From positions 10,999-74,998 of the forward strand of contig JACPMR010000002.1 in the NCBI GenBank assembly GCA_016185945.1: 64,000 nt of DNA, given 5' to 3'. The translations under genes were made by a program, and so were the position numbers. The number at the start of each line of letters is the position of its first letter. Position 1 is the first letter of the stretch. This document shows positions 12,204-62,819 of the stretch, piece by piece. The notes under the pieces are model-generated. The model saw only the letters and a program-made list of their open reading frames with translations, did not search any database and was not told the DNA's origin. Origin of the DNA: Candidatus Woesearchaeota archaeon (lineage in GTDB: Archaea > Nanobdellota > Nanobdellia > Woesearchaeales > GW2011-AR4).

Positions 12204-12216
12204 TAACATGATCTGG

Positions 12217-13056: not shown

Positions 13057-13086
13057 AATATTGGAGTTCTTTTAAATCTTTAAATT

Positions 13087-13255
13087 TTCAATCCGTCTGC
13101 GACGCATTTTACTGCGCGTCGGCATTCTGATGTTGAGGAAGCATTCTTTTGTGCTCCTCCTCCGCGCCTATTTATTAAATAATTTCAGGCAAACTTTCCT
13201 GAGCTGGGTTCCCATTCCACCCTTGCTTTTGTTGGGAAGCGACGTTGATTGAATT
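13087..13255 (+). repeat. dispersed GC-rich element copy A (subfamily 1)
   Basis: TTCAATCCG, hairpin, conserved blocks cggcattctgatgtt / gtgctcctcc / cctatttatt / ttcctgagctgggttccca / tgggaagcgacgtt. Confidence 0.6.
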
Positions 13256-13301
13256 ATTTTTTTATGTTATAATTTTGAAAGAGTTAGTATTTTGTTGATT
13301 T

Positions 13302-13610
13302 TTAATCCAATTCACTAACTATTCTTTTCAATGCGTCGTCAACTGCAACAAATAGATTTCTATCTATAGCTTCTGAAGCATAAACTTTCCCATTGTCGAC
13401 AATCTTGACATGCACTTCATATTTTTCGCTTTTCTCTCTTTGGTGTATGGGCTTTAAAGTTACATGCAAAGACTCCATTTTTTCACATAATTCAGAAATT
13501 CTTTTGGCATGGTTGCCTATAATTTTCTTCAAAACTATCATTGAAGAGCTATCAATATCTCTGAAGCCAGTCAACTGGATATTGCCGCCAAGTCTTAAAT
13601 CGTCTTCCAT
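13302..13610 (-). CDS. ribosome hibernation-promoting factor / RaiA (S30AE) family-like protein
   Basis: 102 aa. The C-terminal half YEVHVKIVDNGKVYASEAIDRNLFVAVDDALKRIVSEL parallels E. coli HPF ATLHVNGGEIHASAEGQDMYAAIDGLIDKLARQL. The N-terminal NIQLTG parallels LNITGNN. Confidence 0.45.
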   Translation of the reverse strand: MEDDLRLGGNIQLTGFRDIDSSSMIVLKKIIGNHAKRISELCEKMESLHVTLKPIHQREKSEKYEVHVKIVDNGKVYASEAIDRNLFVAVDDALKRIVSELD

Positions 13611-14081
13611 GAGGCGCTATCTAATTTCAGGATTATAAAAAGATTTTGGTTTTGAAAATAAAAAAAGTTATTCAGAAGCCGGGTTTGCTTCCTTACTTTA
13701 GCCATTATTCCTTTCTATATAGAAGAAAAATAGATTTAAATCCTATTGATGATTTACAAAGTGTATTGTTCTAATTACGCAAGGTCAAAGGCTGCCTTCA
13801 GGGCAATCCAGCCAATATTTCGTACATTTTACCTATGGGAGCATAAGATGTTATAAAGGGAATAATAAAGTTAGAGTTATTCCAACTGCAGAATTAATTC
13901 AATTAGCTTCAAATCCAGATACATTAAAGCAATCGCTTGAAGAAAGATTATTGTTAAAAGGAGAGGAATTGGGGATAGTGGCTGATACTATAAGAGAAAT
14001 GTATGTGGATGGCTCATTGATTGCATATTTATAACTATTCTTGTATAAATATTTATATTATAGACATCATTACTTAGTAAT

Positions 14082-14378
14082 ATGAACATTGCCGATTTAG
14101 TTAAAGAACTTTTCCCAAGTCATGACTTAGACAGGTTAGAGAGCGCTAAAAATCCACGACAATTGTTCTTGAACTACATGGCTAATCTCCCAAAACATGC
14201 GATTAGGGGCGGAGCGCTTGGTGCCGTAATTGGCCCAGTTGTTATTCCATTGATATATGACTTCTTTGGTGTGGACTTATCAGGTGATCCTACTTTTGAC
14301 AGAGCAGGAGGCGCTTTTTGGGTTGCATTAATTGATATGGCACAATATGTTGCACGTGCATATAGATTTGCTAAATAA
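14082..14378 (+). CDS. hypothetical small protein with a Gly/Ala-rich hydrophobic segment
   Basis: 98-aa ORF. Confidence 0.35.
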   Translation: MNIADLVKELFPSHDLDRLESAKNPRQLFLNYMANLPKHAIRGGALGAVIGPVVIPLIYDFFGVDLSGDPTFDRAGGAFWVALIDMAQYVARAYRFAK

Positions 14379-14423
14379 AATATTGATTATCATTCACAAA
14401 GATAAAAATATAAATAGGAATAA

Positions 14424-48573: not shown

Positions 48574-48873
48574 CTATCCGCCCTTCTTCCTCAAAGAATT
48601 CAACCTTGTCCTCAGCTTCTTGACAGCAGATTCCTTGTCCCTCGAGCTCAGCAAGTCATTTGCAAGCTTCTGGTCGCCTATGACATCTGAAATCCATTTG
48701 CTGAAATCGTTCTTCTCGCTGTTCACATGATGAATGTAAGTTTCATCGCTCATCTGCGGCAATGTGTCTGCCAATTCTTCAATGTTTTTCAGTATAGGGC
48801 CGTTATTCACCCAGAAGCATTGCTCAGGCTGGGTGTTGCCAAGGTATTTTCTTGCTTCATCTTTTGTAACCAT
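48574..48873 (-). CDS. hypothetical protein, paralogue A of a tandem pair
   Basis: Shares FxVxxGxxLKNIxELADxLxxMSxExxxHHxNxxxNDFSxWxxDV with the neighbouring ORF. Confidence 0.5.
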   Translation of the reverse strand: MVTKDEARKYLGNTQPEQCFWVNNGPILKNIEELADTLPQMSDETYIHHVNSEKNDFSKWISDVIGDQKLANDLLSSRDKESAVKKLRTRLNSLRKKGG

Positions 48874-48875
48874 TT

Positions 48876-49226
48876 TTACATCAGCTCTTTTACTAATCTT
48901 CTTAATACTGCAATCTGTGTTTCAAGGCGGTTTTTTGCTCTTGATATGTCTTCTGCAAGGCTATGATCGTAAAAAACATCTTTGACCCATGTACTGAAGT
49001 CATTCTTGAATTCATTGGCATGATGCCTGAAGATTTCCTCGCTCATGGTTTCAAGCGCATCTGCAAGCTCTATGATGTTTTTCAGCTTTCTGCCGTCTGC
49101 AACAACAAAATGATGCTCTTCGGGAGCTTCTCCGAGAACTTTTTTTCTTATTATTACTTCGACTGATTGCAATGGCTTTTTAGAATCAGACTTATTTTTA
49201 GCTGTTCTGCCTCTTTTTTTAACCAT
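48876..49226 (-). CDS. hypothetical protein, paralogue B (basic N-terminal tail)
   Basis: Same motif block as 48574-48873. Confidence 0.5.
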   Translation of the reverse strand: MVKKRGRTAKNKSDSKKPLQSVEVIIRKKVLGEAPEEHHFVVADGRKLKNIIELADALETMSEEIFRHHANEFKNDFSTWVKDVFYDHSLAEDISRAKNRLETQIAVLRRLVKELM

Positions 49227-49289: not shown

Positions 49290-49658
49290 TTATTCAAGTT
49301 GGCAACCGCTTAACTGGCTTAATTGTTCCAAAGTTAATTCGCCTTCTATTCTTTGCCCTATAAATTCCCACGTTGGATAAGCCCTTATGCCGGCATCATT
49401 GCAAAACTGAGTTTGCCCTGCCTGGTTTGGCAGAGAACATTCAATATAGTTTATGTATTGCCTGCTTTCTCCAAACATTTCTTTTTGGCTATTGCAATGT
49501 GGGCACCAATATGCGCCATACATCTTGGCTCCAGAGTTTGTCAGGCATTTGGCAAAATCATCATATTTTGAAGATTTAACAACATTGCCTGTTGTATTAG
49601 TGCAACTGGCAATCAGAAGCCCAGTGACAAATAAGAAAATCATTGTTTTTAGGTTCAT
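49290..49658 (-). CDS. thioredoxin-fold lipoprotein (CxxC thiol-disulfide oxidoreductase-like)
   Basis: Signal peptide LLIASCT. WCPHC motif. Confidence 0.6.
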   Translation of the reverse strand: MNLKTMIFLFVTGLLIASCTNTTGNVVKSSKYDDFAKCLTNSGAKMYGAYWCPHCNSQKEMFGESRQYINYIECSLPNQAGQTQFCNDAGIRAYPTWEFIGQRIEGELTLEQLSQLSGCQLE

Positions 49659-50925: not shown

Positions 50926-50976
50926 TTTTGTTTTTGAGTTTTTGATTTGTTTTTAATCTTGCTTATTAAAAATTTC

Positions 50977-51075
50977 TTCAATCCGTCGTGCTTCGCACGA
51001 CAATATCTTGGCGCCTCGGCATTCTGATGTGAAGGCAACATTTATTTGTGCTCCTCCTCGGCGCCTATACATTTA
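50977..51075 (+). repeat. element copy H (subfamily 1, 3'-truncated)
   Basis: ttcaatccg GTCGTGC-TTCG-GCACGAC, then cggcattctgatgtg...gtgctcctcctcggcgcctatacattt. Confidence 0.55.
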
Positions 51076-51079
51076 ATCC

Positions 51080-52018
51080 TTACTTCTTAAATGCTGTTTT
51101 CATGCTCCAGTTGAATCCAATGTCCTCAATGGTTATTGAATTATTGTTCAAAGAGTCCAAAAACTTAAACTTTTCGTTTTTCTCAAAGCAGCTTCTATGC
51201 CACCATGAAGCACTATCGGAGTTTACAGCTTCTATAACCCTTGCATAGGCTCCTGCATCAAAGTGTATGTACTCAACTACAAGCTTTCCATCATCAGCTA
51301 CGGTGCATCTTGCCACAAACGGCTCTGCAGTCCTTTCCAAAACTGGAGAGTTTGCCTGCAACGCTCCATAGTAGACAGTTCCTGTAATGTTAGCATTACC
51401 GGCGACCATCAATCTCTGGTTTGGGGCAGTTGTGCCTATGCCGACGTTGCCTGCCTCGCTGATTCTCATTCGCTCATTATTGTCGGCGTTGCCTCCCGTA
51501 TAAAACCGAATAACTGCTGCCCCATTGGTGGAGGTGATTGACATCCCTCCTGCTCCGTTAGTTGCCAGTTCTGCGCCAGCCTGCTTTGCCGAGCCGCTAG
51601 AAGTATACGCAGAGCCATAATGATTGAAGAAGTTGGCCGTGACATCATCGGTAACCTGAATTATTGCGCTGGAAGATGTGCCTCCTCCTTGATTTGTAAC
51701 TTTTAATCTCGTCGATGCATCTTGGTCATGTCTTACTTCCAGCCGCTGTGAAGGGCTCGCTGTACCAATGCCCACCTTGTTGTTTGTTGAGTCAACAAAC
51801 AATGTATCCGTATCAATGAATAAGTTGTTTGAAACGTTTAAAGCACCATTTTCCGCTGTAATGCCTGCTCCGCTTATGAGGATGGCTGCCATTACGAATA
51901 GAGCTAACGCTAGGCAGAGCTTTAATATTTGGGTAAAATAGGAGTTCAATCTGGAAAATCTGTTCAAAACAAATCTTTCTTTTTTATTTTTCCTGTATGT
52001 ATTTCTTCTTTTTTCCAT
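51080..52018 (-). CDS. membrane-anchored protein with two copies of a VGIGT(A/T)xPxQRLxV tail-fibre-like motif; GC-rich relative to surroundings
   Basis: TM helix LCLALALFVMAAILISGAG. KVGIGTASPSQRLEV and NVGIGTTAPNQRLMV. A start at the internal Met (52018) avoids overlap with the upstream gene. Confidence 0.55.
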   Translation of the reverse strand: MEKRRNTYRKNKKERFVLNRFSRLNSYFTQILKLCLALALFVMAAILISGAGITAENGALNVSNNLFIDTDTLFVDSTNNKVGIGTASPSQRLEVRHDQDASTRLKVTNQGGGTSSSAIIQVTDDVTANFFNHYGSAYTSSGSAKQAGAELATNGAGGMSITSTNGAAVIRFYTGGNADNNERMRISEAGNVGIGTTAPNQRLMVAGNANITGTVYYGALQANSPVLERTAEPFVARCTVADDGKLVVEYIHFDAGAYARVIEAVNSDSASWWHRSCFEKNEKFKFLDSLNNNSITIEDIGFNWSMKTAFKK

Positions 52019-52028
52019 TCCATTCACC

Positions 52029-54122
52029 TCATGGACTGCCATTCTGTGTTAAAGTTCCTTTCAAAAATACGTATCCAGTCTCATTCACAAAAGCAACTAG
52101 ATTGCTTGAATTGTCCTTTATCCTGAAGTCATTTTTATTTGTGTCAGAGGTTAAAGTACCTTGATTTTCAAATAAAGTTCCATCAATGTACATGCTTCCA
52201 TTGTTTTCTATGATTAAGACATCATTTAGATTGTTTCTTATTTTAAAGGCAAAGTTGTCTGTTGCCTGGAAGTTGGAGTTTTGTTCCAAATTTCCTTTAA
52301 TCACAACATTGCCTGCATCTCCAAACCATGCTATGTTGCTTCCGCTTGAGTTTTTGATGAGGAATTTGTTTATGTCTGGAAGAGAGGTTGAGTTAACTTT
52401 AAAAGTAAAATTAATATCAGCCCAGTCACTCATAGAATTATTATCAAAAGCCAAACAATTCCAAATATAATTTCCATTGGGGATGTTATTAACTATAAAA
52501 GTTTCATAGTCAGAAGTTCCTGTTATATTTTTTGTTTCATCAGCTGCCCATACACCAGAAATATTATGGTATAAAGTAATATTCTTCAGATTCTCATTGA
52601 AATCAGTTGCTGAACAATTGAATATTAGGTTTCCTGTTGTGCTTATGTTGTTGTTTAATGGACTTACTAACGTTACGATTGGTGGTACTGGATTGGATAT
52701 TGTGAATGTTCCAGTGGTGTCATTTCCAGTATTTATACCATCTGTAGCTAGGATTTTTATTTTATATTCATGTGAATTGATAAAGTTAGATGAATTCAAT
52801 AATAAAGTAGTGTTTGGGTAATCAATTTCTATGGTTGATAAACTACTACCATTATCACTTGATATTAATATTGCATATTGGATTGTATCATTGTCTAAGT
52901 CGGAAGCGTTCCATGTTATATTAAAGGATTTGTCGAAGACTTCACTGCCTGTTGGGAAGGTTATTGTGATATTGGGTGTGTTTTGGGACACATTTATCTC
53001 AGATTTTATTACTGTTTCATTTTCTTTTATCATAATCGTGGTCACGTTATCTGTATATGGTAAGACAAAAGCGAAAGCTGTAACGTTTGTTTCGATTGTA
53101 TCACCACCAATCTCCGTTATCGTAAAATCAACATCAAATGTGTGATTGTAAAAAAGAGTACCATTAGATTCGAGAATAATAGAAAAATTACCCGATGAAG
53201 TCTGGTTTTCAATGCTCTGCTCATCTAAAATGTAAGAAATATCTGTAATTAAAGTTCCATTTTTAAGTATGGTTCCACTAAACAAAATTGCTTTCTCGAC
53301 ATTCAATAATTCAGAAGGTTCTTCTAGTTGTTCAAGTAAATGAATGTAAGTTAAGTTATCAATCCATCTATTATTTTGATCGCCTGCATTTCCCATAAAA
53401 TTAAAAAGATTGATTGTGTCATTTTGTGCTTTCCAAGGAACTAGTTTTCCTATAGTACTTGTATCACAACCTGTACTTTCATCTAAACAAGAAGCATCTA
53501 AAGAATTATCATTATCTAAATCGCCATTTGGACAAAAACCAGATATGAAAATAAATCTTGTATCTTGATTTTCCCAAACAGTATCGTTATATTCATCACA
53601 TATGCCAAAAGTGTGTGCCAATTCATGTGCACTTCCATGTCTAAATCCTTCTTCGATAATGACTGCTTTTATGTTAGCAGTTTTTAATGCATTATTTTTA
53701 TAACTTATATATGTATACCCTTTTGTATTATTTTGTCCATGGTTAAAAAACCATCCTTGAGGGACTATTCCAACTACTCTATCTGTTTTATTACTAAGTC
53801 TTCCCTCCTTGTATAATTCTTTAAGGAGATCGAACTTTTCAATTGTACTTAATGTACTTCCTATATTTGAACTAGAAATTCCACGTCTAACATTAGTGAT
53901 AAGTCCTGTATCAGAAAGTGGATAAGTCCTATTTATGAATTGTATACTATTCCCCAATCTCTGATCAAATTCAGAAGATTTTTCATCTATTGCCACAAAA
54001 TCTATTTTTAGTTGTCTTGTTTCTATTACATTTACATGGGTAGTTTTAGAAATAGCTACAACATTATTGATTACTATCATAAATATTATTACTTTTAATA
54101 TAAGTTTGATTATTTTTTTCAT
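52029..54122 (-). CDS. secreted zinc metalloprotease (HExxH) with many N-glycosylation sequons and a C-terminal cassette shared with 56730-58742
   Basis: Signal peptide. GSAHELAHTFGICDEY. Dozens of NxS/T. C-terminal ~110 aa near-identical to the other protein. Confidence 0.7.
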   Translation of the reverse strand: MKKIIKLILKVIIFMIVINNVVAISKTTHVNVIETRQLKIDFVAIDEKSSEFDQRLGNSIQFINRTYPLSDTGLITNVRRGISSSNIGSTLSTIEKFDLLKELYKEGRLSNKTDRVVGIVPQGWFFNHGQNNTKGYTYISYKNNALKTANIKAVIIEEGFRHGSAHELAHTFGICDEYNDTVWENQDTRFIFISGFCPNGDLDNDNSLDASCLDESTGCDTSTIGKLVPWKAQNDTINLFNFMGNAGDQNNRWIDNLTYIHLLEQLEEPSELLNVEKAILFSGTILKNGTLITDISYILDEQSIENQTSSGNFSIILESNGTLFYNHTFDVDFTITEIGGDTIETNVTAFAFVLPYTDNVTTIMIKENETVIKSEINVSQNTPNITITFPTGSEVFDKSFNITWNASDLDNDTIQYAILISSDNGSSLSTIEIDYPNTTLLLNSSNFINSHEYKIKILATDGINTGNDTTGTFTISNPVPPIVTLVSPLNNNISTTGNLIFNCSATDFNENLKNITLYHNISGVWAADETKNITGTSDYETFIVNNIPNGNYIWNCLAFDNNSMSDWADINFTFKVNSTSLPDINKFLIKNSSGSNIAWFGDAGNVVIKGNLEQNSNFQATDNFAFKIRNNLNDVLIIENNGSMYIDGTLFENQGTLTSDTNKNDFRIKDNSSNLVAFVNETGYVFLKGTLTQNGSP

Positions 54123-54478
54123 CTTATTCTAATAAATTTTCTATAAATAATTGTCAGCAAACAAGACACTAAATAATAATATGCTAACAAAACAATAAAA
54201 ACTAATATAAGTGAAGATGTGAAACCATATCTTTCTATATCTATGCTAATATTTGTTATATCTGTAATAAAAATTAAAGGATAAATTGGGCCAGTAACTA
54301 AAAAAGACGGTTTTGATACAATAACGTCTCCAACCTGAGTGTAATAAGCAAAAGGTACTATCCCAAAGAATCCTAAAGTAGCTATAATGATAAATATTAA
54401 GGTGGTTAATATTTTCCATTTCGTCGGTCTAAAAAACTCAACTAAAAACTCATAAATCTTAAATTGTTTTTTTTCCAT
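54119..54478 (-). CDS. small membrane protein
   Basis: 119 aa with 3 hydrophobic segments. Confidence 0.4.
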   Translation of the reverse strand: MEKKQFKIYEFLVEFFRPTKWKILTTLIFIIIATLGFFGIVPFAYYTQVGDVIVSKPSFLVTGPIYPLIFITDITNISIDIERYGFTSSLILVFIVLLAYYYLVSCLLTIIYRKFIRIR

Positions 54479-54551
54479 TTTAGTTCACCTTGACCTTGCA
54501 AGTTGCTACAGTTTCACTCATTTTCACCACCTTTTTTATTTTTTATTTAAA

Positions 54552-56558
54552 TTAAGTAACTTCCACTCTAATCTCTTTATTACTTCCAGCAACATCAGGA
54601 ACAAAATTTAAATCAATATTTTTTTCTTGTCCAGCATTTATAGTTTCTATTGTAGAATTTTTTAGGGTATTTTCAAAAAACAAACTAATAGTAATATTTT
54701 TATTATCTATAAAATTGTTTTTTATAACAGATCTTACTAAAGTAGTTTTACCTTTAACCAAATCGACATCTTTTATGACTTGAATAGGAATGATCTCTTG
54801 AATAGTGAATCCTATTGTTAAATTTGATTCATACCATATTACTTTATCATCATTTTGTGATGCGCTTAACACATCTGTATCATTATCTTTATCGATATCT
54901 ATTGCAAATACAGACCATGCACCATCTGCAGTGATTGATATATTATGTGGTATAAAATTTGGAGGAACACTACCATTGTTCTCGTACCAAGCTATTTTGT
55001 CATCAAATTCAGAAGCACTTAATACATCAATATCATTATCCTTGTCTAAATCTATTGCAAATACTGATCTTGCTCCATTTGCATCAGTTGCTATAATTCT
55101 AGTAGTCCAATTTGGAATTGAACTACCATTATTTTCGTACCATGCTATTTTATTATCATCAACTGATACACTAACTACATCAATATCATTATCACCATCG
55201 ATGTCTATAGCAAATACCGAAGATGCACCTGCAGCAGATGTTGTTATATTATGAACTGTCCAATTCGGTGGAGAACTGCCATTATTTTCATACCAAGTAA
55301 TTCTGTTATCATCCAATGAAGCACTTACCACGTCTATATCATTATCTTTATCTATATCTTTCGCATATACAGACCATGCATTGTTAACATTTGTTGAGAT
55401 TATGTGTGTGGTCCAATTTAGAGGTGATCCTCCTTTATTCTCGTACCATTCTATCCTATCATTAAAACTTGATTCACTAACCACATCAATGTCGCTATCA
55501 TTGTCTATGTCTATTGCATATAGGCCTCCAGGGTCTTTAACAGAACTTATAATATGGCTTACCCAATTTATTGGTGAACCCCCTATATTTTCATACCATT
55601 CAATTCTGTCAAGACCATCTAGAGTGGCGATTACATCAGTATCATTATCTTTATCTAAATCTATCGCAAACACGGCAATAGGTCTGTCGGCATCTGTCTT
55701 TATTGTATAATTTGTCCAGCTTGGAGTGGATCCACCATTATTTTGATACCATTCTATTTTATTGTCAAAATTGACTGAGCTAATAACATCAATATCTTGG
55801 TCATTATCTAGGTCAGCGGCATAGACAGATAATGCTCCATTGGCTGTAACACTTATATTTCGTGCTGTCCACCCGATTACCGGATCAATAAACAATTCTT
55901 CTAATCCTTCAAGTTCTTTATTTACCTCTAAATTAATATAATTTTTATTATTGAAAGAATAAACAGAAACAGAGTAATTTAAATCAGTGATATCCTTAAA
56001 ATTATAATAATTATTTCCAAATGTTAATGTATGTCCTGTTAAAGAACTTTTATTTAAACCTGGAAACTTTCCTTTTGTAACTTCAAACGCTTTAAAGTAA
56101 ATAGGTTTTTTGCTAACAACGTATTTTGTTCTATTCCAAACAACAAAATCAGAATCTATTTCATACAGAATATTTAATTTTGTATTCTTGTTGGTATTTA
56201 ATAAATTTCTAAGAATATAACTCTGTTTTATTGGTCTTTCATCCACATTAAAGAAACTGGTATCAATTTCTTCATAAATGCTTTCAACCTCTATATTTTG
56301 GGATTTAAACTTATTTCTTATTTTTTTTTCAGAAAAAGGAAGAGTTTCTTTATCAAATGCTTCAACAGTGATATTATCATAATCAATGCCAAATCCTATC
56401 TGCTTAAATCTTTTAAGCTGATTAAACTTATCAACAGCTACTATATCATCTATGATTGGTTTTGTTTGATTACCATTTAAACTAACAGCGCTTACAATAA
56501 CAGAGAAAGAAATAACTATAATAAGGAAAGCTATCACCTGCTTTTTGTTTAACTCCAC
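54552..56558 (-). CDS. secreted FG-GAP/VCBS-repeat beta-propeller protein
   Basis: Signal peptide. About 7 repeats of DxDxDxDIDVxS...D.KIxWYENxGGSxxxW. Confidence 0.7.
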   Translation of the reverse strand: MELNKKQVIAFLIIVISFSVIVSAVSLNGNQTKPIIDDIVAVDKFNQLKRFKQIGFGIDYDNITVEAFDKETLPFSEKKIRNKFKSQNIEVESIYEEIDTSFFNVDERPIKQSYILRNLLNTNKNTKLNILYEIDSDFVVWNRTKYVVSKKPIYFKAFEVTKGKFPGLNKSSLTGHTLTFGNNYYNFKDITDLNYSVSVYSFNNKNYINLEVNKELEGLEELFIDPVIGWTARNISVTANGALSVYAADLDNDQDIDVISSVNFDNKIEWYQNNGGSTPSWTNYTIKTDADRPIAVFAIDLDKDNDTDVIATLDGLDRIEWYENIGGSPINWVSHIISSVKDPGGLYAIDIDNDSDIDVVSESSFNDRIEWYENKGGSPLNWTTHIISTNVNNAWSVYAKDIDKDNDIDVVSASLDDNRITWYENNGSSPPNWTVHNITTSAAGASSVFAIDIDGDNDIDVVSVSVDDNKIAWYENNGSSIPNWTTRIIATDANGARSVFAIDLDKDNDIDVLSASEFDDKIAWYENNGSVPPNFIPHNISITADGAWSVFAIDIDKDNDTDVLSASQNDDKVIWYESNLTIGFTIQEIIPIQVIKDVDLVKGKTTLVRSVIKNNFIDNKNITISLFFENTLKNSTIETINAGQEKNIDLNFVPDVAGSNKEIRVEVT

Positions 56559-56729
56559 ACTAACACCCCCAAACTGATTTTTATGATAAAGTACAACTCC
56601 TATTTATATTTTTTCATTTTCTCGTCTATAAATCTTGTATAATCCATTCTATATAAAATATATTTCTTCAATTCTTAAAACTTAATCGAGTTAATAAATT
56701 TTTAACAATAATTCATGTTACATAGTACT

Positions 56730-58742
56730 TTACTTCAAACTCCCCTTCAAAAACAAATAACCACCTTCATTAACAAAAGCAACTAGATTGCTTGAATTGT
56801 CCTTTATCCTGAAGTCATTTTTATTTGTGCCAGAGGTTAAAGTACCTTGATTTTCCTGCAAAGTGCCGTCAATATACATAGAGCCATTGTTTTCTATTAT
56901 CAAGACATCATTTAGGTTGTTTCTTATCTTAAAGGCGAAATTATCTGTCGCTTGGAAGTTTGAGGATTGTTCTAGAACACCTTTTATTACTATATTTCCA
57001 GCATCTCCAAACCATGCTATGTTGCTACCTGAAGAGTTTTTTATGAGGAATTTGTTTATGTCTGGAAGAGAGGTTGTGTTTACAGTGACAGAAGCAGTTA
57101 ATGAAGCAGTTACTGCAGTTGATTCGCTTATTCCAGTTGCATTTGCCTTTACATTGAATGTTCCGCCGCTGCTGAAATTGTAAGCCAGATATACAAATTC
57201 CTTTTCGTTTACAGCTAAAGAGCTTATGTTTATTGTGCTGTTTATCACATTGTTGTTGGCTGTGTCAAACTGCCATTGGACATTTGTGACTGTGTTGCTG
57301 CCGTTGTTCAGAATGACAAATTCAAAGATTTTTAGTGTTCCATTGCTGTACATCTCTGTTATAGATTCTATCTTAAGCGATACAACAACGCTTACATTAT
57401 CCTGTATGTAATAAACACCAAAATCAGATAAATTTAATATACCAAAATTGTTTGAAGAAAATGCCAGAGAGACATTGCAGTAGCCTTCAGAATCCTCGCT
57501 GCAATTTGCTAGAGCATTATTTAATTCCTGATTGAAGTCAAGCACATTTTCTTCATTGCCAAAGTATCCTGTATTATTCCAAGCCTGGCTATTATTTACA
57601 TATAAAATGGGGTTTTGTGTTGCGTTTCTAATTGTAACAGTATTAGCACTTTGTACCTGTGTTCCAAACAACAAACCATCGCTTGGAGTGACTTTGCAAT
57701 ACCATTGATCGCCAGGTGTTAAATTGTTTTTGGCCAATGTTTGAGAGTTTATATTTTGGTTTACACTATTTTTCCACCATTGATAGCTTGAATTTTGCTC
57801 TGTAAAGTTTTCTGGATCGGAATAAGTGTAGTTGCATAATAAGTCTTGTCCAGCATTTGGGATTTCTGGTAGGACACTTACATTAGAAACAGAAGGTGCT
57901 TCATGAGTTCTGTCACAGCTTTGGTCATTGCTTTGATTTATTAAAGTTGATTCATAAACAATATATTTTACACTAGGTGGAGTTACAGCGCCTATCCTGT
58001 TTATGTTTACATAGTCATTGGCGCCCCCTAAATTATCACCGCACTCTGAATCTGTATATAATGTACTATCTGGAGTGCCCTGATCATAATAATAACCTTG
58101 ATGCACATTCAGTATTGTGGCTCTGTTGTAGCAGTCTGTATCGCATATACCACTTCCACCAACCCCTGAGCATGCTACTGTATTCGGAGAGCATAATACC
58201 CCTTCTTTAACTCTGATTTTTGAACGATAAGTGCTGTCGGCATCAGCTTCTGTATGGGCCCTCATTGTCTTAATTAAATAATCAAACTCTGGATCGCCAA
58301 CATTCCCGATATAGTTGTTCATGCCGTTAAACCATGGCGAGCTTCTTTGCGTATCATCCCAAAATCCGCCTATTGCTTCTGAATCACAATCTGGAGAAAC
58401 TGGATCTACTGTAATACTTACCTCATGGTCAGCCATGTGTGTTGCATCATAAGTGAAATTGTAGCATCTTCCTGTATTTGTAGGAGTATAGCTAGAAGAA
58501 ATATCATTATCTTCCACTCTGCTGTTGTCTAAAAATCCAACGTTTGTATCAGAAGCCACTTGAGTCCAATCTTGCTTGCATACTTCCACTGTGCAATTCC
58601 TTACACAAGTTGAGCCTTCGCATTTTACGCCATTATCGGTATAGCCAGAAGGACATGCTGATGTAGTGCAGTTTATGTAAGCCAAAGTATTTGGAATTAT
58701 TAAAAATAATGCTAAAATCCATATTAAATTTATTTTTCTCAT
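56730..58742 (-). CDS. secreted Cys-rich surface protein with shared C-terminal cassette
   Basis: Signal peptide. Cys-rich N-terminus. C-terminal ~110 aa about 90% identical to the tail of 52029-54122. Confidence 0.6.
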   Translation of the reverse strand: MRKINLIWILALFLIIPNTLAYINCTTSACPSGYTDNGVKCEGSTCVRNCTVEVCKQDWTQVASDTNVGFLDNSRVEDNDISSSYTPTNTGRCYNFTYDATHMADHEVSITVDPVSPDCDSEAIGGFWDDTQRSSPWFNGMNNYIGNVGDPEFDYLIKTMRAHTEADADSTYRSKIRVKEGVLCSPNTVACSGVGGSGICDTDCYNRATILNVHQGYYYDQGTPDSTLYTDSECGDNLGGANDYVNINRIGAVTPPSVKYIVYESTLINQSNDQSCDRTHEAPSVSNVSVLPEIPNAGQDLLCNYTYSDPENFTEQNSSYQWWKNSVNQNINSQTLAKNNLTPGDQWYCKVTPSDGLLFGTQVQSANTVTIRNATQNPILYVNNSQAWNNTGYFGNEENVLDFNQELNNALANCSEDSEGYCNVSLAFSSNNFGILNLSDFGVYYIQDNVSVVVSLKIESITEMYSNGTLKIFEFVILNNGSNTVTNVQWQFDTANNNVINSTINISSLAVNEKEFVYLAYNFSSGGTFNVKANATGISESTAVTASLTASVTVNTTSLPDINKFLIKNSSGSNIAWFGDAGNIVIKGVLEQSSNFQATDNFAFKIRNNLNDVLIIENNGSMYIDGTLQENQGTLTSGTNKNDFRIKDNSSNLVAFVNEGGYLFLKGSLK

Positions 58743-61573
58743 GGCGCTAATCCAGTCACTTTTAATTTTGAATAAATCACAGTGGCATTCTTTGGAAGCC
58801 TTATATTAACAGTTAAATTTCCTGGCTGGGTGAAGTTAAGCAATTTATTCGTTAAGCCATCTGTGAATTGGTTTTGTAACTTTGTAGTTTCATTGAAAAC
58901 AATAACGTCAATAAACTGGGTTGTGCTTAAATTGCCGTCAGAAGCCTCTACTAAAATAGAATAGTTGCCAGTGTCATTAATTGTAGTTTGCCATTGACCT
59001 GAAGAGTTAAATGGTGAGCTATAGAAAAAATCTATGCTATTACCTTCCGCATCTGAAGTTGAAATCAATTGGCTTATATTGATTAAATCTCCAGCAATTG
59101 CTGTTACGTTGCTTATCTTTGTTATTTCTGGCGGTGAATTAATATTTGAAACACTAACGAAAACAGTTTCAGGACTTGCTGCTCTTTTGAATGCAATTTC
59201 TGCAACTCCGTCATTATCAAGGTCGGCAATTGCTAGACCGTTGTCTATCAATCCTACTATTTTGTAAGGATCAAACAGTAAGTTTCCATCATTTTTTAAT
59301 ACATAAACGCTTGAGCCTTTGTTTTCGCCTAAAATAATATTGTAATTTCCATCATTGTCTATATCAGCACTGCTGGGACTTATGGCTCCTGGATGTAAGG
59401 TGTTAGAAGCATCATAAATCCATTGCTGTGCTCCGCTCACAGCATCAAAAGCCCTTACAGAGCCAAGACCATCAGGCAAGGTTTTTTCCATTGTAACGAC
59501 TATCTCCATATTTGAATCAGAGTCTAAATTAACTATTGTTGGCGTCGCTCTTGGAATGTCTGTAAAGCTTATAGGAAAGTTTGCATTGTATTCATTGCAA
59601 GTTAAAGGATTAACTACATGCAGTTTATTTTCACAAGTGCTACCTGCAGCGCAAGGTGTATTAGCTGTCACATACACCAATTCATAATCATTATCTTTAT
59701 CAACATCATAAATTACAGCAGAATCCCATAAATAAGCATGCGTGTTGTTGCATAATTTGTTTAATTTTCCAGTGCTTTGATTATATTTAAGGATAATAAT
59801 TCCATATTGAGATGGAACCACAATTTCGGGATAATCATCGCTATCCAGATTTGCTATTGAAACAGAGCCATAAGCTCCTCCATTTCCTATTATATAGCTG
59901 GTTTCATTTGCTCCTGTATTTCCATTAAGAACATAAACCTTTCCTGGCCATTCATCATCGCCATCAAGCAAATCAACAACAATTACTTCTTGTTGCCCGT
60001 CCAAATCAACATCAGCAACAGCGCTTCCTCCATTAAACTTAACTCTAAAGTTAGTGCCATCAAATCTTGGCTCTAAATGATATTGCCATTTTATTGTTGG
60101 CTGTCCGCCATCAAAGTCATAAGCATAGATTGTTCCGTTTCTGTTGCCTGTAATAATTTCTTTCTTTTCATCATTATCTATATCTGCTAAAGTTGGAGGT
60201 CGATAGATTGAGCCGTCTTCGCCGCCTCTTACATTTACAGCATTCCATTTTGGTTTTGTTTCAAAGCCAAGCGGTATTTTCAAGAATGATTTTTTCTTTG
60301 TTTCAGTAGCAAACATTCTTGTAAAGTTGCCCATAACTGGCTTATGGACAAGAATTACAGTGTCCATCAAGCCATTTCCTTCCAAATCAGCAACAGAGGG
60401 CTTAACAACTTGCTGTATGTTGTCGTTTGCTGCGTCTAAGAAGAAATCAACTTGATTTTTTACATCTTTTTTGTCTTTTAAGTCGCCTTTAAGCAAAGTA
60501 AATCCAGTTCTTCTGAAATCATGGTTTTCGGTGGGCCAGTCGAAGAAATTTACTGCACTAAATAAGTCAATTCTTGAGAAGTTTTTACCTGTATCTGGTT
60601 CTAATATTTTCTTACCAGTATTTTTAAGAAGCATCTCGATATCGAATGGTTTTAAAGCAGTATCATATTGTTTTAAGAGCAAAAAAGCCCCAGCTACGTG
60701 TGGTGTAGCAAAACTAGTTCCAATAGTACACCTAAAGTCTGATATTCCCAGTTCACACAAAATCTCATTAAAGAATGTAAAACCTCCTCCTCTTTTAATT
60801 GTTTTTATATAATCTCCAGGTGCCAATAAATCCAAATTGGAACCTACATTTGTGTAACCACTGATAATGTCCTTCTTATTTACAGAACCTACTGGTGTAA
60901 CATTTCCTAAACAAGCAGGAAAATTAATTCCAACCCGACTAAATTCATTTCCCGATGCGAATATAACCGATATTCCCTTAGAAATAGCTTCAGCTACAAC
61001 TTTGGATAAATTAGAATTATAAAGATTTCCACAATTTGTATCATTATAGGTTAAATCACCTAAACTTGCACTAATAGTTGTTATGTTTAATTTTGTGCTG
61101 TTATCAATACACCACTTCATACCCTTTTCTACTCGATTCCAAAATTCTTGGTCTGATGCCGAATCTCCAGTATCTTTAAAGACTTTTATAGATACTATCT
61201 TAGAATTTGGAGCAACACCTGGAAAAATCGCATTAGTAGACGAAATTATCCCAGCAACTGCTGTTCCATGATATTCTACAGCATATGGATTAGAATCGTT
61301 ATCACCAAAATCGTAACCACCTATTACTTTTCCACAACTTTTGTCATTGATATCAGTTGTTATGTTGCATCCACCCAGACTGGGGCGGGTATAATCTATC
61401 CCATCATCAATAATACAAACTGTATTATATTGTCCTGAGATACCACTCAAATATAAATTCCAAGAACCAATTATTCTAGTAGTTGTGGACAAAGCATATG
61501 CAAATTGTACTATAAGTATTAAAGTCATTAAAATTAACAAATTTATTTTAATTCTTTTTATTAATATGGTCAT
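58739..61573 (-). CDS. subtilisin-like serine protease (S8) fused to FG-GAP repeats
   Basis: Catalytic triad contexts IIDDGIDY, HGTAVAGII, GTSFATPHVAG. 944 aa. Confidence 0.8.
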   Translation of the reverse strand: MTILIKRIKINLLILMTLILIVQFAYALSTTTRIIGSWNLYLSGISGQYNTVCIIDDGIDYTRPSLGGCNITTDINDKSCGKVIGGYDFGDNDSNPYAVEYHGTAVAGIISSTNAIFPGVAPNSKIVSIKVFKDTGDSASDQEFWNRVEKGMKWCIDNSTKLNITTISASLGDLTYNDTNCGNLYNSNLSKVVAEAISKGISVIFASGNEFSRVGINFPACLGNVTPVGSVNKKDIISGYTNVGSNLDLLAPGDYIKTIKRGGGFTFFNEILCELGISDFRCTIGTSFATPHVAGAFLLLKQYDTALKPFDIEMLLKNTGKKILEPDTGKNFSRIDLFSAVNFFDWPTENHDFRRTGFTLLKGDLKDKKDVKNQVDFFLDAANDNIQQVVKPSVADLEGNGLMDTVILVHKPVMGNFTRMFATETKKKSFLKIPLGFETKPKWNAVNVRGGEDGSIYRPPTLADIDNDEKKEIITGNRNGTIYAYDFDGGQPTIKWQYHLEPRFDGTNFRVKFNGGSAVADVDLDGQQEVIVVDLLDGDDEWPGKVYVLNGNTGANETSYIIGNGGAYGSVSIANLDSDDYPEIVVPSQYGIIILKYNQSTGKLNKLCNNTHAYLWDSAVIYDVDKDNDYELVYVTANTPCAAGSTCENKLHVVNPLTCNEYNANFPISFTDIPRATPTIVNLDSDSNMEIVVTMEKTLPDGLGSVRAFDAVSGAQQWIYDASNTLHPGAISPSSADIDNDGNYNIILGENKGSSVYVLKNDGNLLFDPYKIVGLIDNGLAIADLDNDGVAEIAFKRAASPETVFVSVSNINSPPEITKISNVTAIAGDLINISQLISTSDAEGNSIDFFYSSPFNSSGQWQTTINDTGNYSILVEASDGNLSTTQFIDVIVFNETTKLQNQFTDGLTNKLLNFTQPGNLTVNIRLPKNATVIYSKLKVTGLAP

Positions 61574-61583
61574 TTTTAATAAT

Positions 61584-61871
61584 TTATTTCAGTCTTTTTA
61601 TAGTACATTGGTTATATCTACAAATTGGAGTTCCAAATCTGCAATCTAATATAGTTCTGCAATCTTTTGTACAACCAACACCATTACAATTTGGAGCATA
61701 TTTTATATTCACAACGTCTTCAGCATGACAACATTTGTTAGGAACACAATCAGTATCTTTTTCACAATACTTTTCTGGAGGGATACTTCCTTTGTTTATT
61801 TTAGTACATGCACTTACAAAAATCATTGTAATCAAAATAAAAATCAATAATTGTTTATATTGAATTTTCAT
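61584..61871 (-). CDS. small secreted Cys-rich protein (14 Cys)
   Basis: Signal peptide plus knottin-like Cys spacing. Confidence 0.45.
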   Translation of the reverse strand: MKIQYKQLLIFILITMIFVSACTKINKGSIPPEKYCEKDTDCVPNKCCHAEDVVNIKYAPNCNGVGCTKDCRTILDCRFGTPICRYNQCTIKRLK

Positions 61872-61913
61872 AATCCAACACCTCCAAAATCACAATAACA
61901 ATTAGTGTATTCC

Positions 61914-62819
61914 TCATTTCCTCTCCACTGAAACATCCACAACATCATAACTTTGATAACCAAAATGGCAAAATCCAGTACCTTCGCAATGATTAAATTT
62001 GACAGAGTTAACTTTCAGCACATAATCACCATCAATATCAAAAGAAGTTACTTTGCTGTTTCCAAATTGCTCAAAGCTTCGAATTTGGGGTATAGGAACA
62101 CCATTTATTCTGAAAGCACAATACTTTCCATTTATCTCGCAGTATAAAATGTCTATTACATAATTCTGATTATTGAGTTTGACGCCTTTTAATCTTTCAT
62201 TTACAGCCCCTACCTTTAACGTGTATTTTGTGTTTCCTGTAATGTTAGTAAACACAACATCAGAAAAATTTTTATTTTTTTGCAAGTAATTGAGTCTGTA
62301 TTCTCTATCAAAATCTAAACTATCTTCATCAAATACTTTTGCTAATCTAGTGGTATTATTAGATAGATTAATGGTCAGATTTTCTACAACAATTGCAGAA
62401 TAATTTAGTATAGTATTATTTAATAAATTAAGCGTCTCATCACTTAAGTTAATACTTTGATTCGGTATTATTGTCCGGTTGCTTATTGAGATATTTGGAA
62501 TCAAATTATCAGTTTCAATTGTAGAAAAATTATCTACGGAAAGAGTTAAATTTATAGTATCATTGCTTATTATTGTTTGATTTTGTGTTTCATTTTCTAT
62601 TGGAATCGTTAAGTTAGTTGTTTCATTGACAGATGTTGTATTTTCAATTATAAAATTATTTACAGGTGAAACATTTAGTAAGGCATCATTCAATGTGTTA
62701 TTAATGCTAGAATTAAGCACCTGCGCACTTACAAAAATAACAGCGCCAAAGAGCAATGCAAGTACTGCAACTAATCCAAACTCGCCTTTCTTGCTCTTTA
62801 AAATGTTATTTTGTTGCAT
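61914..62819 (-). CDS. N-terminally anchored Asn-rich surface protein with >25 NxS/T sequons
   Basis: TM helix followed by NxT/NxS-dense sequence. Confidence 0.5.
   Translation of the reverse strand: MQQNNILKSKKGEFGLVAVLALLFGAVIFVSAQVLNSSINNTLNDALLNVSPVNNFIIENTTSVNETTNLTIPIENETQNQTIISNDTINLTLSVDNFSTIETDNLIPNISISNRTIIPNQSINLSDETLNLLNNTILNYSAIVVENLTINLSNNTTRLAKVFDEDSLDFDREYRLNYLQKNKNFSDVVFTNITGNTKYTLKVGAVNERLKGVKLNNQNYVIDILYCEINGKYCAFRINGVPIPQIRSFEQFGNSKVTSFDIDGDYVLKVNSVKFNHCEGTGFCHFGYQSYDVVDVSVERK

What the first reader, a model, noticed from the sequence alone, without database searches (positions are those of the whole stretch)
51080..52018. GC-rich gene with tail-fibre-like VGIGTxxPxQRLxV repeats at the edge of the surface-protein island
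This gene is visibly more GC-rich (runs of GCC/GGC codons) than its neighbours. It encodes an N-terminally anchored Gly/Ala/Thr/Ser-rich protein with two copies of KVGIGTASPSQRLEV / NVGIGTTAPNQRLMV. That motif is reminiscent of repeats in phage tail-fibre or virus fibre proteins. This suggests foreign origin, possibly a viral or prophage remnant or a surface fibre. Truncated repeat copy H abuts its 3' end.
Basis: partly seen in the sequence, partly recalled or inferred. Interest (0 to 1): 0.5.

Follow-up and report, generated by a model that had tools for sequence, protein, structure and literature searches.

The report
Membrane-anchored tail-fibre-like surface fibre, DPANN archaeon
This gene of a tiny symbiotic archaeon (Woesearchaeota) encodes a short, probably membrane-anchored surface fibre built like the tip of a phage tail fibre; it is a resident chromosomal gene rather than a prophage remnant, it always follows a secreted protein carrying one particular end-module, and it is a plausible candidate for attaching these cells to their partners.

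Summary
ORF 51080-52018 (-) encodes a 312-aa protein with a basic N-terminal tail, one hydrophobic helix, a Gly/Ala/Thr/Asn/Ser-rich region and two VGIGTxxPxQRLxV motifs 110 residues apart. These motifs match the "capping loops" that bound the trimeric beta-helix of phage tail fibres and Bdellovibrio MAT fibres (PDB 8OND, E 9e-16; tail-fibre PHROG, 3e-14).

The foreign-origin reading is not supported:
- Gene GC is 0.44, z = +1.05 and 9th of 55 ORFs. GC3 is unremarkable. The excess is at codon position 2, so it reflects amino-acid content.
- The window holds housekeeping genes and no viral genes.
- The gene keeps its position in other Woesearchaeota genomes.

New findings:
- Family members share N- and C-terminal parts (55-86% identity). 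The 46-190 residues between the capping loops are unalignable (3-10%).
- The ~100-aa C-terminal domain replaces the S74 chaperone. It has no Pfam, PDB or fold match and only 23 representatives among 1.84 billion proteins. It recurs in fibres of uncultivated head-tailed viruses (54% identity).
- In 10 of 10 loci, the upstream gene ends in a conserved 115-aa triple-repeat module.

Best reading: a native adhesin-type fibre, co-expressed with, and possibly tethering, module-bearing exoproteins.

The parts
51080..52018 (-). Fibre gene: 312 aa plus stop. The ORF is open back to an ATG at 52042, but Met at 52018 is the likely start.
   Evidence: ORF list. Identical to NCBI 'hypothetical protein HYX02_00400 [Candidatus Woesearchaeota archaeon]'. 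Homologues start at this Met.
52024..52030 (-). GAGGTGA Shine-Dalgarno-like site, 5 nt before ATG 52018. It overlaps the TGA stop (52031-52029) of the upstream gene, which suggests translational coupling.
   Evidence: Read directly from the sequence. The function is inferred.
51929..52018 (-). Basic N-terminal tail, predicted cytoplasmic (residues 9-38 of the 320-aa ORF).
   Evidence: Residues 9-40 carry 10 K/R against 2 D/E. Conserved 10-66% across the family.
51869..51928 (-). Single hydrophobic helix (residues 39-58). It is either a signal anchor or a long signal peptide, and ends in the conserved ISGAG.
   Evidence: Highest Kyte-Doolittle 19-mers start at residues 38-43. AF2 models a helix here. 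60-75% identity in most homologues.
51776..51868 (-). Conserved extracellular stalk (residues 59-89, GITAENGALNVSNNLFIDTDTLFVDSTNNK).
   Evidence: Alignment A1. Together with the first capping loop it is 55-77% identical in most homologues.
51734..51775 (-). Proximal capping-loop motif VGIGTASPSQRLEV (residues 90-103).
   Evidence: Motif search. Aligned to the Bd2133 motif LGLGTAAPTSALHV. Published consensus (PMC10769870).
51476..51733 (-). Hypervariable beta-helix core between the capping loops (residues 104-189). Proposed ligand-binding face.
   Evidence: Only 3-10% identity, and 46-190 aa long, in homologues whose flanks are 55-86% identical. Aligns to beta-helix domain 1 of Bd2133.
51404..51475 (-). 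Conserved segment ERMRISEAGN plus the distal capping-loop motif VGIGTTAPNQRLMV (motif at 51404-51445, residues 200-213).
51083..51403 (-). Neck (GNANITGTVYYGALQANSP) and the family-specific C-terminal domain (about residues 241-320, strand-strand-strand-helix-strand-strand). Invariant residues include two Cys, plus W, H and K. It occupies the position of the S74 chaperone.
52029..54122 (-). Upstream partner gene (697 aa): signal peptide, HExxH motif (SAHELAHTF), Ig-like region and the C-terminal module.
52032..52376 (-). The 115-aa triple-repeat C-terminal module of the upstream gene, which ends ...GYVFLKGTLTQNGSP*.
   Evidence: DNA repeat D3. tblastn and hmmsearch across loci. Alignment A4.
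56736..57062 (-). Second copy of the module, at the C-terminus of ORF 56730-58742. It is 93% identical in protein and lacks the last 6 residues.
50940..51079 (-). Structured 3' intergenic region, containing the hairpin GUCGUGC-GAA-GCACGAC followed within ~20 nt by a U5 run. Possibly the end of the transcript.
   Evidence: RNA fold -34.5 kcal/mol, z = -3.19 against shuffles. The function is inferred.

Best explanation
The gene encodes a resident cell-surface fibre of a Woesearchaeota (DPANN) archaeon.

Proposed architecture:
- A basic N-terminal tail stays in the cytoplasm.
- One hydrophobic helix anchors the protein in the membrane.
- A short conserved stalk leads to a single tail-fibre-type beta-helix module, bounded by a proximal and a distal capping loop (the two VGIGTxxPxxxLxV motifs).
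- A family-specific C-terminal domain sits where phage fibres and many Bdellovibrio MAT fibres carry the S74 intramolecular chaperone.

By homology with those fibres, three chains should intertwine into a trimer.

Proposed working:
- The conserved ends do the constant jobs: anchoring, stalk, and folding or trimerisation.
- The stretch between the capping loops forms the ligand cleft in the solved relatives. Here it is replaced wholesale between family members, so it probably sets what the fibre binds.
- The likely ligand is a surface glycan or protein of a partner cell or particle, which fits the attached lifestyle of DPANN archaea.
- The gene is probably co-transcribed and translationally coupled with the upstream secreted protein. 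That protein's conserved C-terminal triple-repeat module accompanies the fibre gene at every locus examined.

Shown: homology, domain layout, mosaic conservation, synteny, the gene pairing and the viral relatives.
Inferred: trimerisation, membrane topology, adhesion and the role of the C-terminal domain.
For: Homology to tail-fibre-type beta-helices:
- PDB 8OND (Bd2133): E 9.1e-16. Residues 78-231 align to chain residues 13-170, that is beta-helix 1 and the start of beta-helix 2.
- Four further MAT fibre structures and MyRF also match.
- Tail-fibre PHROGs match at 2.9e-14, and phage tail-fibre genes at 6e-10.

Capping loops:
- Their consensus, and their role in delimiting a 30 x 15 A cleft, are published. 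In Bd3182 the two loops are 96 aa apart (PMC10769870). Here they are 110 aa apart.

Anchor:
- Basic tail plus a 20-residue hydrophobic helix.

Mosaic conservation:
- Flanks are 55-86% identical and the core 3-10%, with core length ranging from 46 to 190 aa.

C-terminal domain:
- Confident fold (pLDDT 81 overall, above 87 within the domain). Conserved across cellular and viral fibres.

Native status:
- Composition.
- Synteny in GCA_016184145.1, GCA_016177615.1 and an ENA contig.
- Housekeeping context.

Coupling to the upstream gene:
- A Shine-Dalgarno-like site overlaps the upstream stop codon.
- The module-bearing gene lies immediately upstream in 10 of 10 loci, with gaps of about -20 to +109 nt.
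Against: - No trimer could be modelled. The monomer AF2 model of the fibre region has low confidence (pLDDT below 50).
- The hydrophobic helix ends in a conserved SGAG, which could be a signal-peptidase site. In that case the fibre would be released rather than anchored.
- In phage and MAT fibres the C-terminal tip is usually the variable, ligand-binding part. Here the tip is conserved, so it could instead bind one invariant ligand.
- There are no expression, localisation or binding data. The organism is uncultivated, and whether it has a host is unknown.
Confidence: 0.6

Rival explanations
1. Docking model. The fibre's main role is to be the membrane-bound partner of a two-component display system. 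The conserved triple-repeat C-terminal module of secreted enzymes and adhesins binds the trimeric fibre, probably at its conserved stalk or C-terminal domain. Proteins that lack any anchor of their own are thereby retained on the cell surface, in the manner of cohesin-dockerin.
For: - The module-bearing gene lies immediately upstream in 10 of 10 independent loci in Woesearchaeota and Pacearchaeota.
- The N-terminal parts of the upstream proteins are unrelated to each other: HExxH, S8 plus FG-GAP, CARDB, YD-like, or only 239 aa.
- The module is far better conserved than the rest of its protein: 83% against 38%.
- In the fetched loci, full-length module hits occur only at C-termini, all of them upstream of a fibre gene except for one extra copy in the window.
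- In the sequences I read, the module-bearing proteins end directly in the module, with no hydrophobic tail.
- A three-fold internal repeat could match a three-fold fibre.
Against: - This rests on gene adjacency alone. There is no structural or interaction evidence.
- The module has no Pfam or PDB match.
- The second module-bearing gene in the window is not next to a fibre gene.
- Adjacency could instead reflect recombination history.
Confidence: 0.25
2. The gene is a recently acquired viral gene or prophage remnant, with no role in the cell's own biology.
For: - Homology to phage tail fibres.
- The C-terminal domain is 54% identical to that of a fibre gene set among head morphogenesis, major capsid and connector genes in IMG/VR contig L015. 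Related fibres occur in L016-L018.
- Locally higher GC than the upstream genes.
Against: - GC is at z = +1.05, GC3 is unremarkable and GC2 drives the excess.
- The same offset occurs in orthologues.
- No viral, integrase or tRNA genes in 64 kb.
- No other window ORF matches the viral loci.
- Chromosomal position is conserved in genomes whose fibres are only 51% identical.
- The family-specific N-terminal basic tail and stalk are absent from the viral fibres.
Confidence: 0.05
3. The conserved C-terminal domain is the receptor-binding tip and recognises one invariant ligand. The variable centre is only a spacer whose sequence drifts or is swapped to alter length or antigenicity.
For: - In many fibres the distal tip binds the receptor. 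NS74 MAT tips are binding domains (PMC10769870).
- The domain has invariant W, H, K and E residues and two Cys.
- The length of the centre varies four-fold.
Against: - Receptor-binding tips are normally the most variable part.
- The domain sits exactly where the S74 chaperone sits, directly after the distal capping loop.
- It is shared by viral and cellular fibres that presumably have different targets.
Confidence: 0.2
4. The N-terminal helix is a cleaved Sec signal peptide, cut after the conserved SGAG. The fibre is then released or built into an S-layer or matrix, not anchored in the membrane.
For: - Small residues at the end of the helix in a conserved ISGAG-I context.
- The viral relatives have short, signal-peptide-like N-termini.
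Against: - The hydrophobic stretch is about 20 residues, which is TM length.
- It is preceded by an unusually long, conserved basic tail of about 30 residues. Such a tail would serve no purpose on a cleaved leader.
Confidence: 0.15

Closest known systems
Bdellovibrio bacteriovorus MAT (mosaic adhesive trimer) fibres, NS74 subgroup, e.g. Bd2133 (PDB 8OND; Caulton et al. 2024, PMC10769870)
   Same: - Best sequence match among solved structures (E 9e-16).
- Beta-helix bounded by the same capping-loop motif.
- A non-S74 C-terminal domain.
- A cell-encoded rather than virion protein, displayed on a cell that attaches to other cells.
- Mosaic evolution.
   Different: - MATs are about 1000 aa, with a Sec signal peptide followed by a conserved ~130-aa beta-rich N-domain. 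This protein is 312 aa, with a basic tail, a TM helix and only about 30 residues before the first capping loop.
- MAT tips vary while their N-termini are conserved. Here both ends are conserved and the centre varies.
- This is an archaeal rather than a bacterial envelope.
- The C-terminal fold is different.
Phage tail fibres and tailspikes with a C-terminal peptidase S74 intramolecular chaperone (T5 pb1 L-shaped fibre, K1F endosialidase)
   Same: - A trimeric intertwined beta-helix with capping loops that delimit a glycan cleft.
- Homology to tail-fibre PHROGs and to annotated phage fibres.
- A conserved domain directly after the distal capping loop.
   Different: - No PF13884 match and no SDxxxK motif.
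- Not in a virion gene cluster.
- Carries a membrane anchor.
Myelin regulatory factor (MyRF), a eukaryotic membrane protein with a phage-derived beta-helix and S74 domain
   Same: A cellular membrane protein that has co-opted the same capping-loop beta-helix. The match to 7DC3 is weak but correctly placed (E 0.01 with the family profile).
   Different: MyRF self-cleaves through its S74 domain to release a transcription factor. Nothing of that kind is present here.
Fibre genes of uncultivated head-tailed (HK97 capsid) viruses: IMGVR_UViG_3300018080_000460 (L015) and IMGVR_UViG_3300033149_003373 (L016)
   Same: - The same neck and C-terminal domain (54% identity over 78 residues, E 1e-28).
- Capping-loop motifs.
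- A hydrophobic N-terminus.
   Different: - The viral proteins are 525-911 aa.
- They lack the basic tail and the conserved stalk.
- They are followed by a small Cys-rich protein.
- No module-bearing gene lies upstream.
- The host of these viruses is unknown.
Cohesin-dockerin display, or C-terminal sorting domains such as the T9SS CTD (analogy for the gene pair only)
   Same: A conserved C-terminal module on otherwise unrelated secreted proteins, genetically linked to a surface-anchored partner.
   Different: - No sequence or fold relationship was detected.
- No interaction has been shown.

Membership tests
Tail-fibre / MAT-type beta-helix with capping loops | Capping-loop consensus (V-G-[I]-G/N-pi-x-x-P-x-x-x-L) present twice, about 100 residues apart | tested here: met
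   VGIGTASPSQRL at residue 90 and VGIGTTAPNQRL at residue 200, 110 residues apart. Consensus and 96-aa spacing in Bd3182 (PMC10769870). The printed consensus is one residue shorter than the aligned Bd2133 motifs VGINTAAPLQKL and VGIGATAPTAKL.
Tail-fibre / MAT-type beta-helix with capping loops | Significant sequence homology to a structurally solved beta-helix fibre domain | tested here: met
   8OND_A at E 9.1e-16, plus 8OML, 8OL4 and 8OJN. Family profile at 3.1e-16. PHROG 9942 at 2.9e-14.
Tail-fibre / MAT-type beta-helix with capping loops | Homotrimeric intertwined assembly | not testable with these tools
   Only monomer AF2 is available, and the fibre region has pLDDT below 50. This is expected for an obligate trimer but is not evidence for one.
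Peptidase S74 intramolecular-chaperone fibres | C-terminal S74 domain (PF13884) | tested here: not met
   No Pfam family at E up to 10. By contrast, many distant homologues do carry PF13884.
Peptidase S74 intramolecular-chaperone fibres | Catalytic SDxxxK motif after the distal capping loop | tested here: not met
   The only SD in the C-terminal part is SDSASW, which has no Lys at +5 (sequence).
Bdellovibrio MAT superfamily (as defined by Caulton et al. 2024) | Signal peptide followed by a conserved ~130-aa beta-rich N-terminal domain | tested here: not met
   Only about 30 residues separate the hydrophobic helix from the first capping loop, which leaves no room for that domain. I could not compare sequences directly, because the N-terminus of MATs is absent from the PDB chains.
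Prophage or integrated viral element | Neighbouring viral hallmark genes, an integrase, or a tRNA/att boundary | tested here: not met
   Pfam annotation of the large (at least ~100 aa) ORFs across the window shows only cellular genes. No tRNA. No other window ORF matches viral loci L015-L018.
Prophage or integrated viral element | Compositional departure from the host genome | tested here: not met
   GC z = +1.05. GC3 ranks 20 of 55. The same offset occurs in orthologues in other genomes.
Prophage or integrated viral element | Patchy presence rather than conserved chromosomal position | tested here: not met
   The gene lies at the same island/housekeeping boundary in L001, L002 and L007: next to GH57, CoaE/CTP-transferase, GAPDH/AlaDH, and FtsZ-Cbf5-L31e-S19e-Lhr.
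Woesearchaeota/Pacearchaeota 'module + anchored fibre' gene pair (proposed here) | The fibre gene is immediately preceded, on the same strand, by a gene ending in the 115-aa triple-repeat module | tested here: met
   Window 52032-52376, with stop and start 10 nt apart. The pairing holds in 10 of 10 loci with upstream sequence.

The most novel reading that the evidence does not exclude
The fibre and the triple-repeat C-terminal module form a previously undescribed two-component surface-display system of DPANN archaea. A membrane-anchored, tail-fibre-derived trimer would act both as a hypervariable adhesin and as the dock that holds interchangeable secreted proteases and adhesins on the cell. 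The conserved block formed by the module plus the 5' end of the fibre gene would serve as a recombination junction for shuffling cargo genes and fibre cores. Head-tailed viruses carry secreted versions of the same fibre, and these may re-tool the surface of the infected cell. The conserved C-terminal domain would be a new, non-S74 folding and trimerisation domain, possibly self-processing at the invariant N-S-P.
Probability: 0.2. Interest if true: 0.8.

Novelty: new variant of a known kind. Interest (0 to 1): 0.55.

Why it matters
DPANN archaea are thought to live attached to other cells, yet the proteins that make and specify that contact are largely unknown.

This family offers a concrete, testable candidate:
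- It is a minimal cell-anchored relative of phage receptor-binding fibres.
- Its predicted ligand face is swapped between genomes while its anchor and folding ends stay constant.

It extends into archaea the theme seen in Bdellovibrio, where a predatory bacterium recognises prey through co-opted phage-like fibres.

It also defines two uncharacterised domains: the C-terminal fibre domain and the triple-repeat module. Both have strict genomic linkage, and one is shared with viruses.

Tried and rejected
- **Family libraries.** Pfam and NCBIfam on the fibre gave nothing.
- **afdb50 fold library.** It was not available.
- **Full-length AF2 monomer.** It was too poor in the fibre part to use, and no structure jobs remained for the module or for a trimer.
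- **Module.** No Pfam or PDB match. B_lectin at 0.11 and RicinB_lectin_2 at 0.067, in one or two members, are not significant. The word-indexed protein search returned only 7 short fragments.
- **Promoter and terminator scan.** The bacterial consensus scan was uninformative.
- **Rfam.** No RNA family anywhere in the window.
- **Host of the related viruses.** The L015 capsid protein has hundreds of close relatives in metagenomes but no informative names, and no GenBank phage match. I therefore do not call them DPANN viruses.
- **Archaeal type IV pilin signal.** Considered and dropped. I see no [KR]-[GAS] cleavage motif before the hydrophobic stretch; this rests on sequence inspection and my own knowledge of the motif.
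- **Diversity-generating retroelement.** Considered as the source of the variable centre. It is unlikely, because the whole segment changes in sequence and length and Pfam found no reverse transcriptase in the ORFs scanned. I did not test this formally.
Full report
**What is there**

The minus strand carries an ORF at 51080..52042 (320 aa). Its sequence is identical to 'hypothetical protein HYX02_00400 [Candidatus Woesearchaeota archaeon]'.

All homologues start at the ninth codon. That ATG, at 52018, is preceded by GAGGTGA at 52030-52024, which overlaps the TGA stop of the upstream gene. Residue numbers below follow the 320-aa ORF used in the tool outputs.

The layout is:
- a basic tail (10 K/R against 2 D/E in residues 9-40);
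- one hydrophobic helix at about residues 39-58;
- a region rich in A, G, T, N and S;
- VGIGTASPSQRLEV at residue 90 and VGIGTTAPNQRLMV at residue 200;
- a C-terminal ~100 residues of ordinary composition.

A looser form of the motif occurs nowhere else in the six-frame translation of the window.

**Composition**

The gene's GC is 0.439. Across 55 ORFs in the window the mean is 0.388 and the sd 0.049, so z = +1.05 and the rank is 9th. Its GC3 of 0.439 ranks 20th. Its GC2 of 0.439 is second highest.

Core metabolic and information genes in the window have the same or higher GC: GAPDH, aldolase, FBPase, proteasome and exosome subunits. The outliers are the upstream secreted-protein genes, with GC3 of 0.19-0.32.

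Orthologous fibre genes in other genomes show the same offset. Gene GC is 0.40-0.44 against locus GC of 0.34-0.38 in four loci (L001, L002, L007, L008), while the chimeric L005 copy shows almost none (0.369 against 0.357). Upstream genes there have GC3 of 0.24-0.29.

The GC contrast is real, but it is a stable property of the family's amino-acid content. It is not a sign of recent transfer.

**Context**

The window is ordinary archaeal chromosome. It carries arginine biosynthesis, phosphoglucomutases, alanine dehydrogenase, GAPDH, aldolase, FBPase, proteasome alpha, SBDS, exosome subunits, FtsZ, Cbf5, L31e, S19e, the Lhr helicase, CoaE and GH57.

There is no tRNA, no Rfam hit and no integrase or viral gene.

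Upstream of the fibre gene lies an AT-rich run of large secreted proteins:
- an HExxH protein;
- a protein with six FG-GAP repeats;
- a 670-aa protein;
- an S8 peptidase with FG-GAP repeats.

**Is it fibre-like?**

Yes, by homology:
- PHROG 9942 'tail fiber protein' at 2.9e-14, plus four more tail or baseplate PHROGs.
- PDB 8OND (Bd2133) at 9.1e-16, plus four other Bdellovibrio MAT fibre structures and a weak MyRF match.
- Annotated tail-fibre proteins of Roseobacter, Pelagibacter and Synechococcus phages at up to 6e-10.

Caulton et al. (PMC10769870) solved these fibres. They are intertwined trimeric beta-helices whose edges carry two identical 'capping loops' with the consensus V-G-G/N-pi-x-x-P-x-x-x-L. 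The loops delimit a 30 x 15 A surface cleft equivalent to the O-antigen site of phage spikes. The same loops occur in T5 pb1, in K1F endosialidase and in MyRF.

The two copies are 110 residues apart, against 96 in Bd3182. Residues 78-231 align to Bd2133 beta-helix 1 and the start of helix 2. The protein therefore contains essentially one beta-helix module.

Trimerisation is inferred. The AF2 monomer model is poor there (pLDDT below 50).

**What follows the distal loop**

Phage fibres and 13 of the 21 MATs carry an S74 chaperone-protease at this position. Here there is no PF13884 match and no SDxxxK motif.

Instead there is a neck, GNANITGTVYYGALQANSP, and a compact domain of three strands, a helix and two strands. 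It models confidently (pLDDT above 87) and has invariant Cys (two), W, H, K and E residues.

**Family anatomy**

I compared the protein with homologues from other Woesearchaeota and from metagenomes:

| Region | Identity to the window protein |
|---|---|
| Hydrophobic helix | 60-75% |
| Stalk plus first capping loop | 55-77% |
| Second capping loop | 45-80% |
| C-terminal domain | 55-86% |
| Segment between the loops | 3-10%, with length 46-190 aa |

Ranges are for most homologues; the chimeric or divergent P0008, P0010 and P0011 fall below them in some regions, and the C-terminal-domain range covers only the homologues that carry this domain type (P0003-P0011).

Some members carry extra capping-loop modules. 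The same N-terminal anchor is also joined to at least two other C-terminal domain types, in P0013 and in P0014/P0016.

This is a cassette design: constant ends and an exchangeable middle. The middle is the part that forms the ligand cleft in the solved relatives. I therefore propose that it sets binding specificity, and that the conserved C-terminal domain serves folding or trimerisation, as S74 does. This is inference. The opposite assignment is listed as a rival.

**Native or viral?**

The chromosomal position is conserved:
- GCA_016184145.1 (fibre 51% identical): HExxH protein, then the fibre, then FtsZ, Cbf5, L31e, S19e and Lhr.
- An ENA contig: FG-GAP protein, a 563-aa protein, the fibre, then GH57, as in the window.
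- GCA_016177615.1: S8/FG-GAP protein, the fibre, then GAPDH and AlaDH, with CoaE and CTP-transferase further on.

A genome scan with the C-terminal-domain profile found only Woesearchaeota, a Nanoarchaeota MAG and Pacearchaeota (the last as partial matches).

The same scan of IMG/VR found four viral contigs:
- In L015 the fibre gene (525 aa; C-terminal domain 54% identical, E 1e-28) lies between genes for head morphogenesis, protease and HK97 capsid on one side and head-tail adaptor and head-closure genes on the other.
- In L016 and L017, by my reading of the translations, it lies among portal, protease and capsid genes.

No other ORF in the window matches these contigs. Their host could not be determined.

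The family has clearly moved between viruses and cells at some time. The window copy, however, is a resident, vertically inherited gene.

**The repeat next to the gene**

It consists of three ~35-residue repeats (F-x-I-K-N-x-x-G-x-x-V-A ... G-N-x-V-x-K-G-x-L) and ends ...GTLTQNGSP. A second copy, lacking the last six residues, ends ORF 56730-58742.

This module accompanies the fibre gene everywhere. There are 10 independent loci with upstream sequence: the window, L001, L002, L007, L012, two loci in one Pacearchaeota MAG (L013 and L014), L019, L020 and L021. In all 10, the gene immediately upstream on the same strand ends in the module, with gaps of about -20 to +109 nt.

The rest of those upstream proteins is unrelated from locus to locus:
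- HExxH proteins;
- a 1332-aa S8/FG-GAP protein;
- a CARDB protein;
- a 1528-aa protein with YD-like repeats (my reading of the sequence);
- a protein of only 239 aa.

The module is 83% identical where the remainder of the protein is 38%. It has no Pfam or PDB match. The viral loci lack it.

The closest relative of the window locus is L021, whose fibre is 91% identical. Its upstream gene matches the C-terminal half of window ORF 56730-58742, not ORF 52029-54122. About 4.7 kb therefore lies between the two module copies in the window and is absent from L021. That is what recombination at the module would produce.

The pairing calls for a functional link. Co-expression is the minimal reading. 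Docking of module-bearing exoproteins, which have no anchor of their own, onto the anchored fibre is the more novel one.

**Comparison with known systems**

In how it works, the protein most resembles a shortened NS74-type MAT fibre or the tip of a phage tail fibre. It is not a member of the S74 family, because both defining features were tested and not met. It is not a MAT as defined either, because there is no room for the conserved 130-aa N-domain.

I found no paper describing tail-fibre-type fibres encoded by DPANN cells. Two papers come close:
- A cryo-ET study saw tail-fibre-like 'antennae' on the host cell, not on the DPANN cell (PMC11329633).
- A groundwater virome study proposed that CPR/DPANN viruses carry adhesion-related surface genes, namely ConA/LamG proteins rather than this family (PMC11310336).

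**Verdict**

- The 'tail-fibre-like surface fibre' reading is supported.
- The 'foreign/prophage' reading is not supported.

It is a new archaeal, membrane-anchored, non-S74 variant of a known kind of fibre. It has a hypervariable core, a rare C-terminal domain shared with viruses, and a strictly conserved partner module. Interest is moderate to fairly high for DPANN and fibre biology. All functional statements remain computational inference.

Noticed in passing
window 52032-52376 and 56736-57062; also L001, L002, L007, L012, L013, L014, L019, L020, L021: An uncharacterised 115-aa triple-repeat C-terminal module (no Pfam or PDB match) ends otherwise unrelated secreted proteins. It always lies directly upstream of the fibre gene. 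Its extreme C-terminus is conserved as G-x-L-x-(Q/E)-N-x-x-P.
   Followed up: yes
window 52029-62819: An AT-rich island (GC3 0.19-0.32, against 0.38 for the window's ORFs on average) of large secreted proteins: an HExxH protein, a protein with six FG-GAP repeats encoded by 153-nt tandem DNA repeats (54828-55767), a 670-aa protein, and an S8 peptidase with FG-GAP repeats. This island, not the fibre gene, is the compositional outlier.
   Followed up: partly
window 52029-56558 versus L021: In the closest relative (fibre 91% identical), the gene upstream of the fibre corresponds to the C-terminal half of window ORF 56730-58742. The 4.7 kb between the window's two module copies is absent there. This suggests insertion or deletion by recombination at the module.
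   Followed up: partly
L005 8001-8669 and L006 4221-4889 (protein P0010): A 222-aa chimera. Its N-terminus resembles that of the window's FG-GAP protein (54552-56558). Its C-terminus is the fibre's distal capping loop plus C-terminal domain. A DDE transposase lies about 3 kb upstream. This is further evidence of shuffling among these surface-protein genes.
   Followed up: partly
L015 6549-6875; L016 6336-6695; L017 3979-6558 (C-terminal end): In the viral contigs the fibre gene is followed by a small Cys-rich membrane protein (...YYGLPTGKCWN...C..GW...). In L017 this sequence is fused to the fibre's C-terminus. Its function is unknown. The viral fibres also begin with signal-peptide-like hydrophobic segments, which is unusual for virion fibres.
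   Followed up: no
window 50940-51079 (-): The intergenic region downstream of the fibre gene folds more stably than shuffled controls (z = -3.19). It has a GGCGCC...GGCGCC stem and a perfect 7-bp hairpin followed within ~20 nt by U5. It may mark the end of the transcript.
   Followed up: partly
window 49290-49658 (-): A 122-aa protein with a lipoprotein-like N-terminus and a thioredoxin-like CPHC motif lies two genes downstream. It could serve extracytoplasmic disulfide formation, and the fibre's C-terminal domain has two invariant cysteines.
   Followed up: no
window 48574-49226 (-): A tandem pair of small DUF5752-like genes (99 and 116 aa) that share a 37-nt DNA repeat (70% identical).
   Followed up: no
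L012 6563-8711: In another Woesearchaeota genome the module-plus-fibre pair is followed by two polytopic membrane proteins. By eye these resemble archaeal type IV pilus or archaellum platform proteins (FlaJ/TadC-like). I did not check this with a profile search.
   Followed up: no
window 12204-14423: A 2.2-kb stretch with no ORF of 110 aa or more and no Rfam or tRNA hit, in an otherwise densely coding window.
   Followed up: partly
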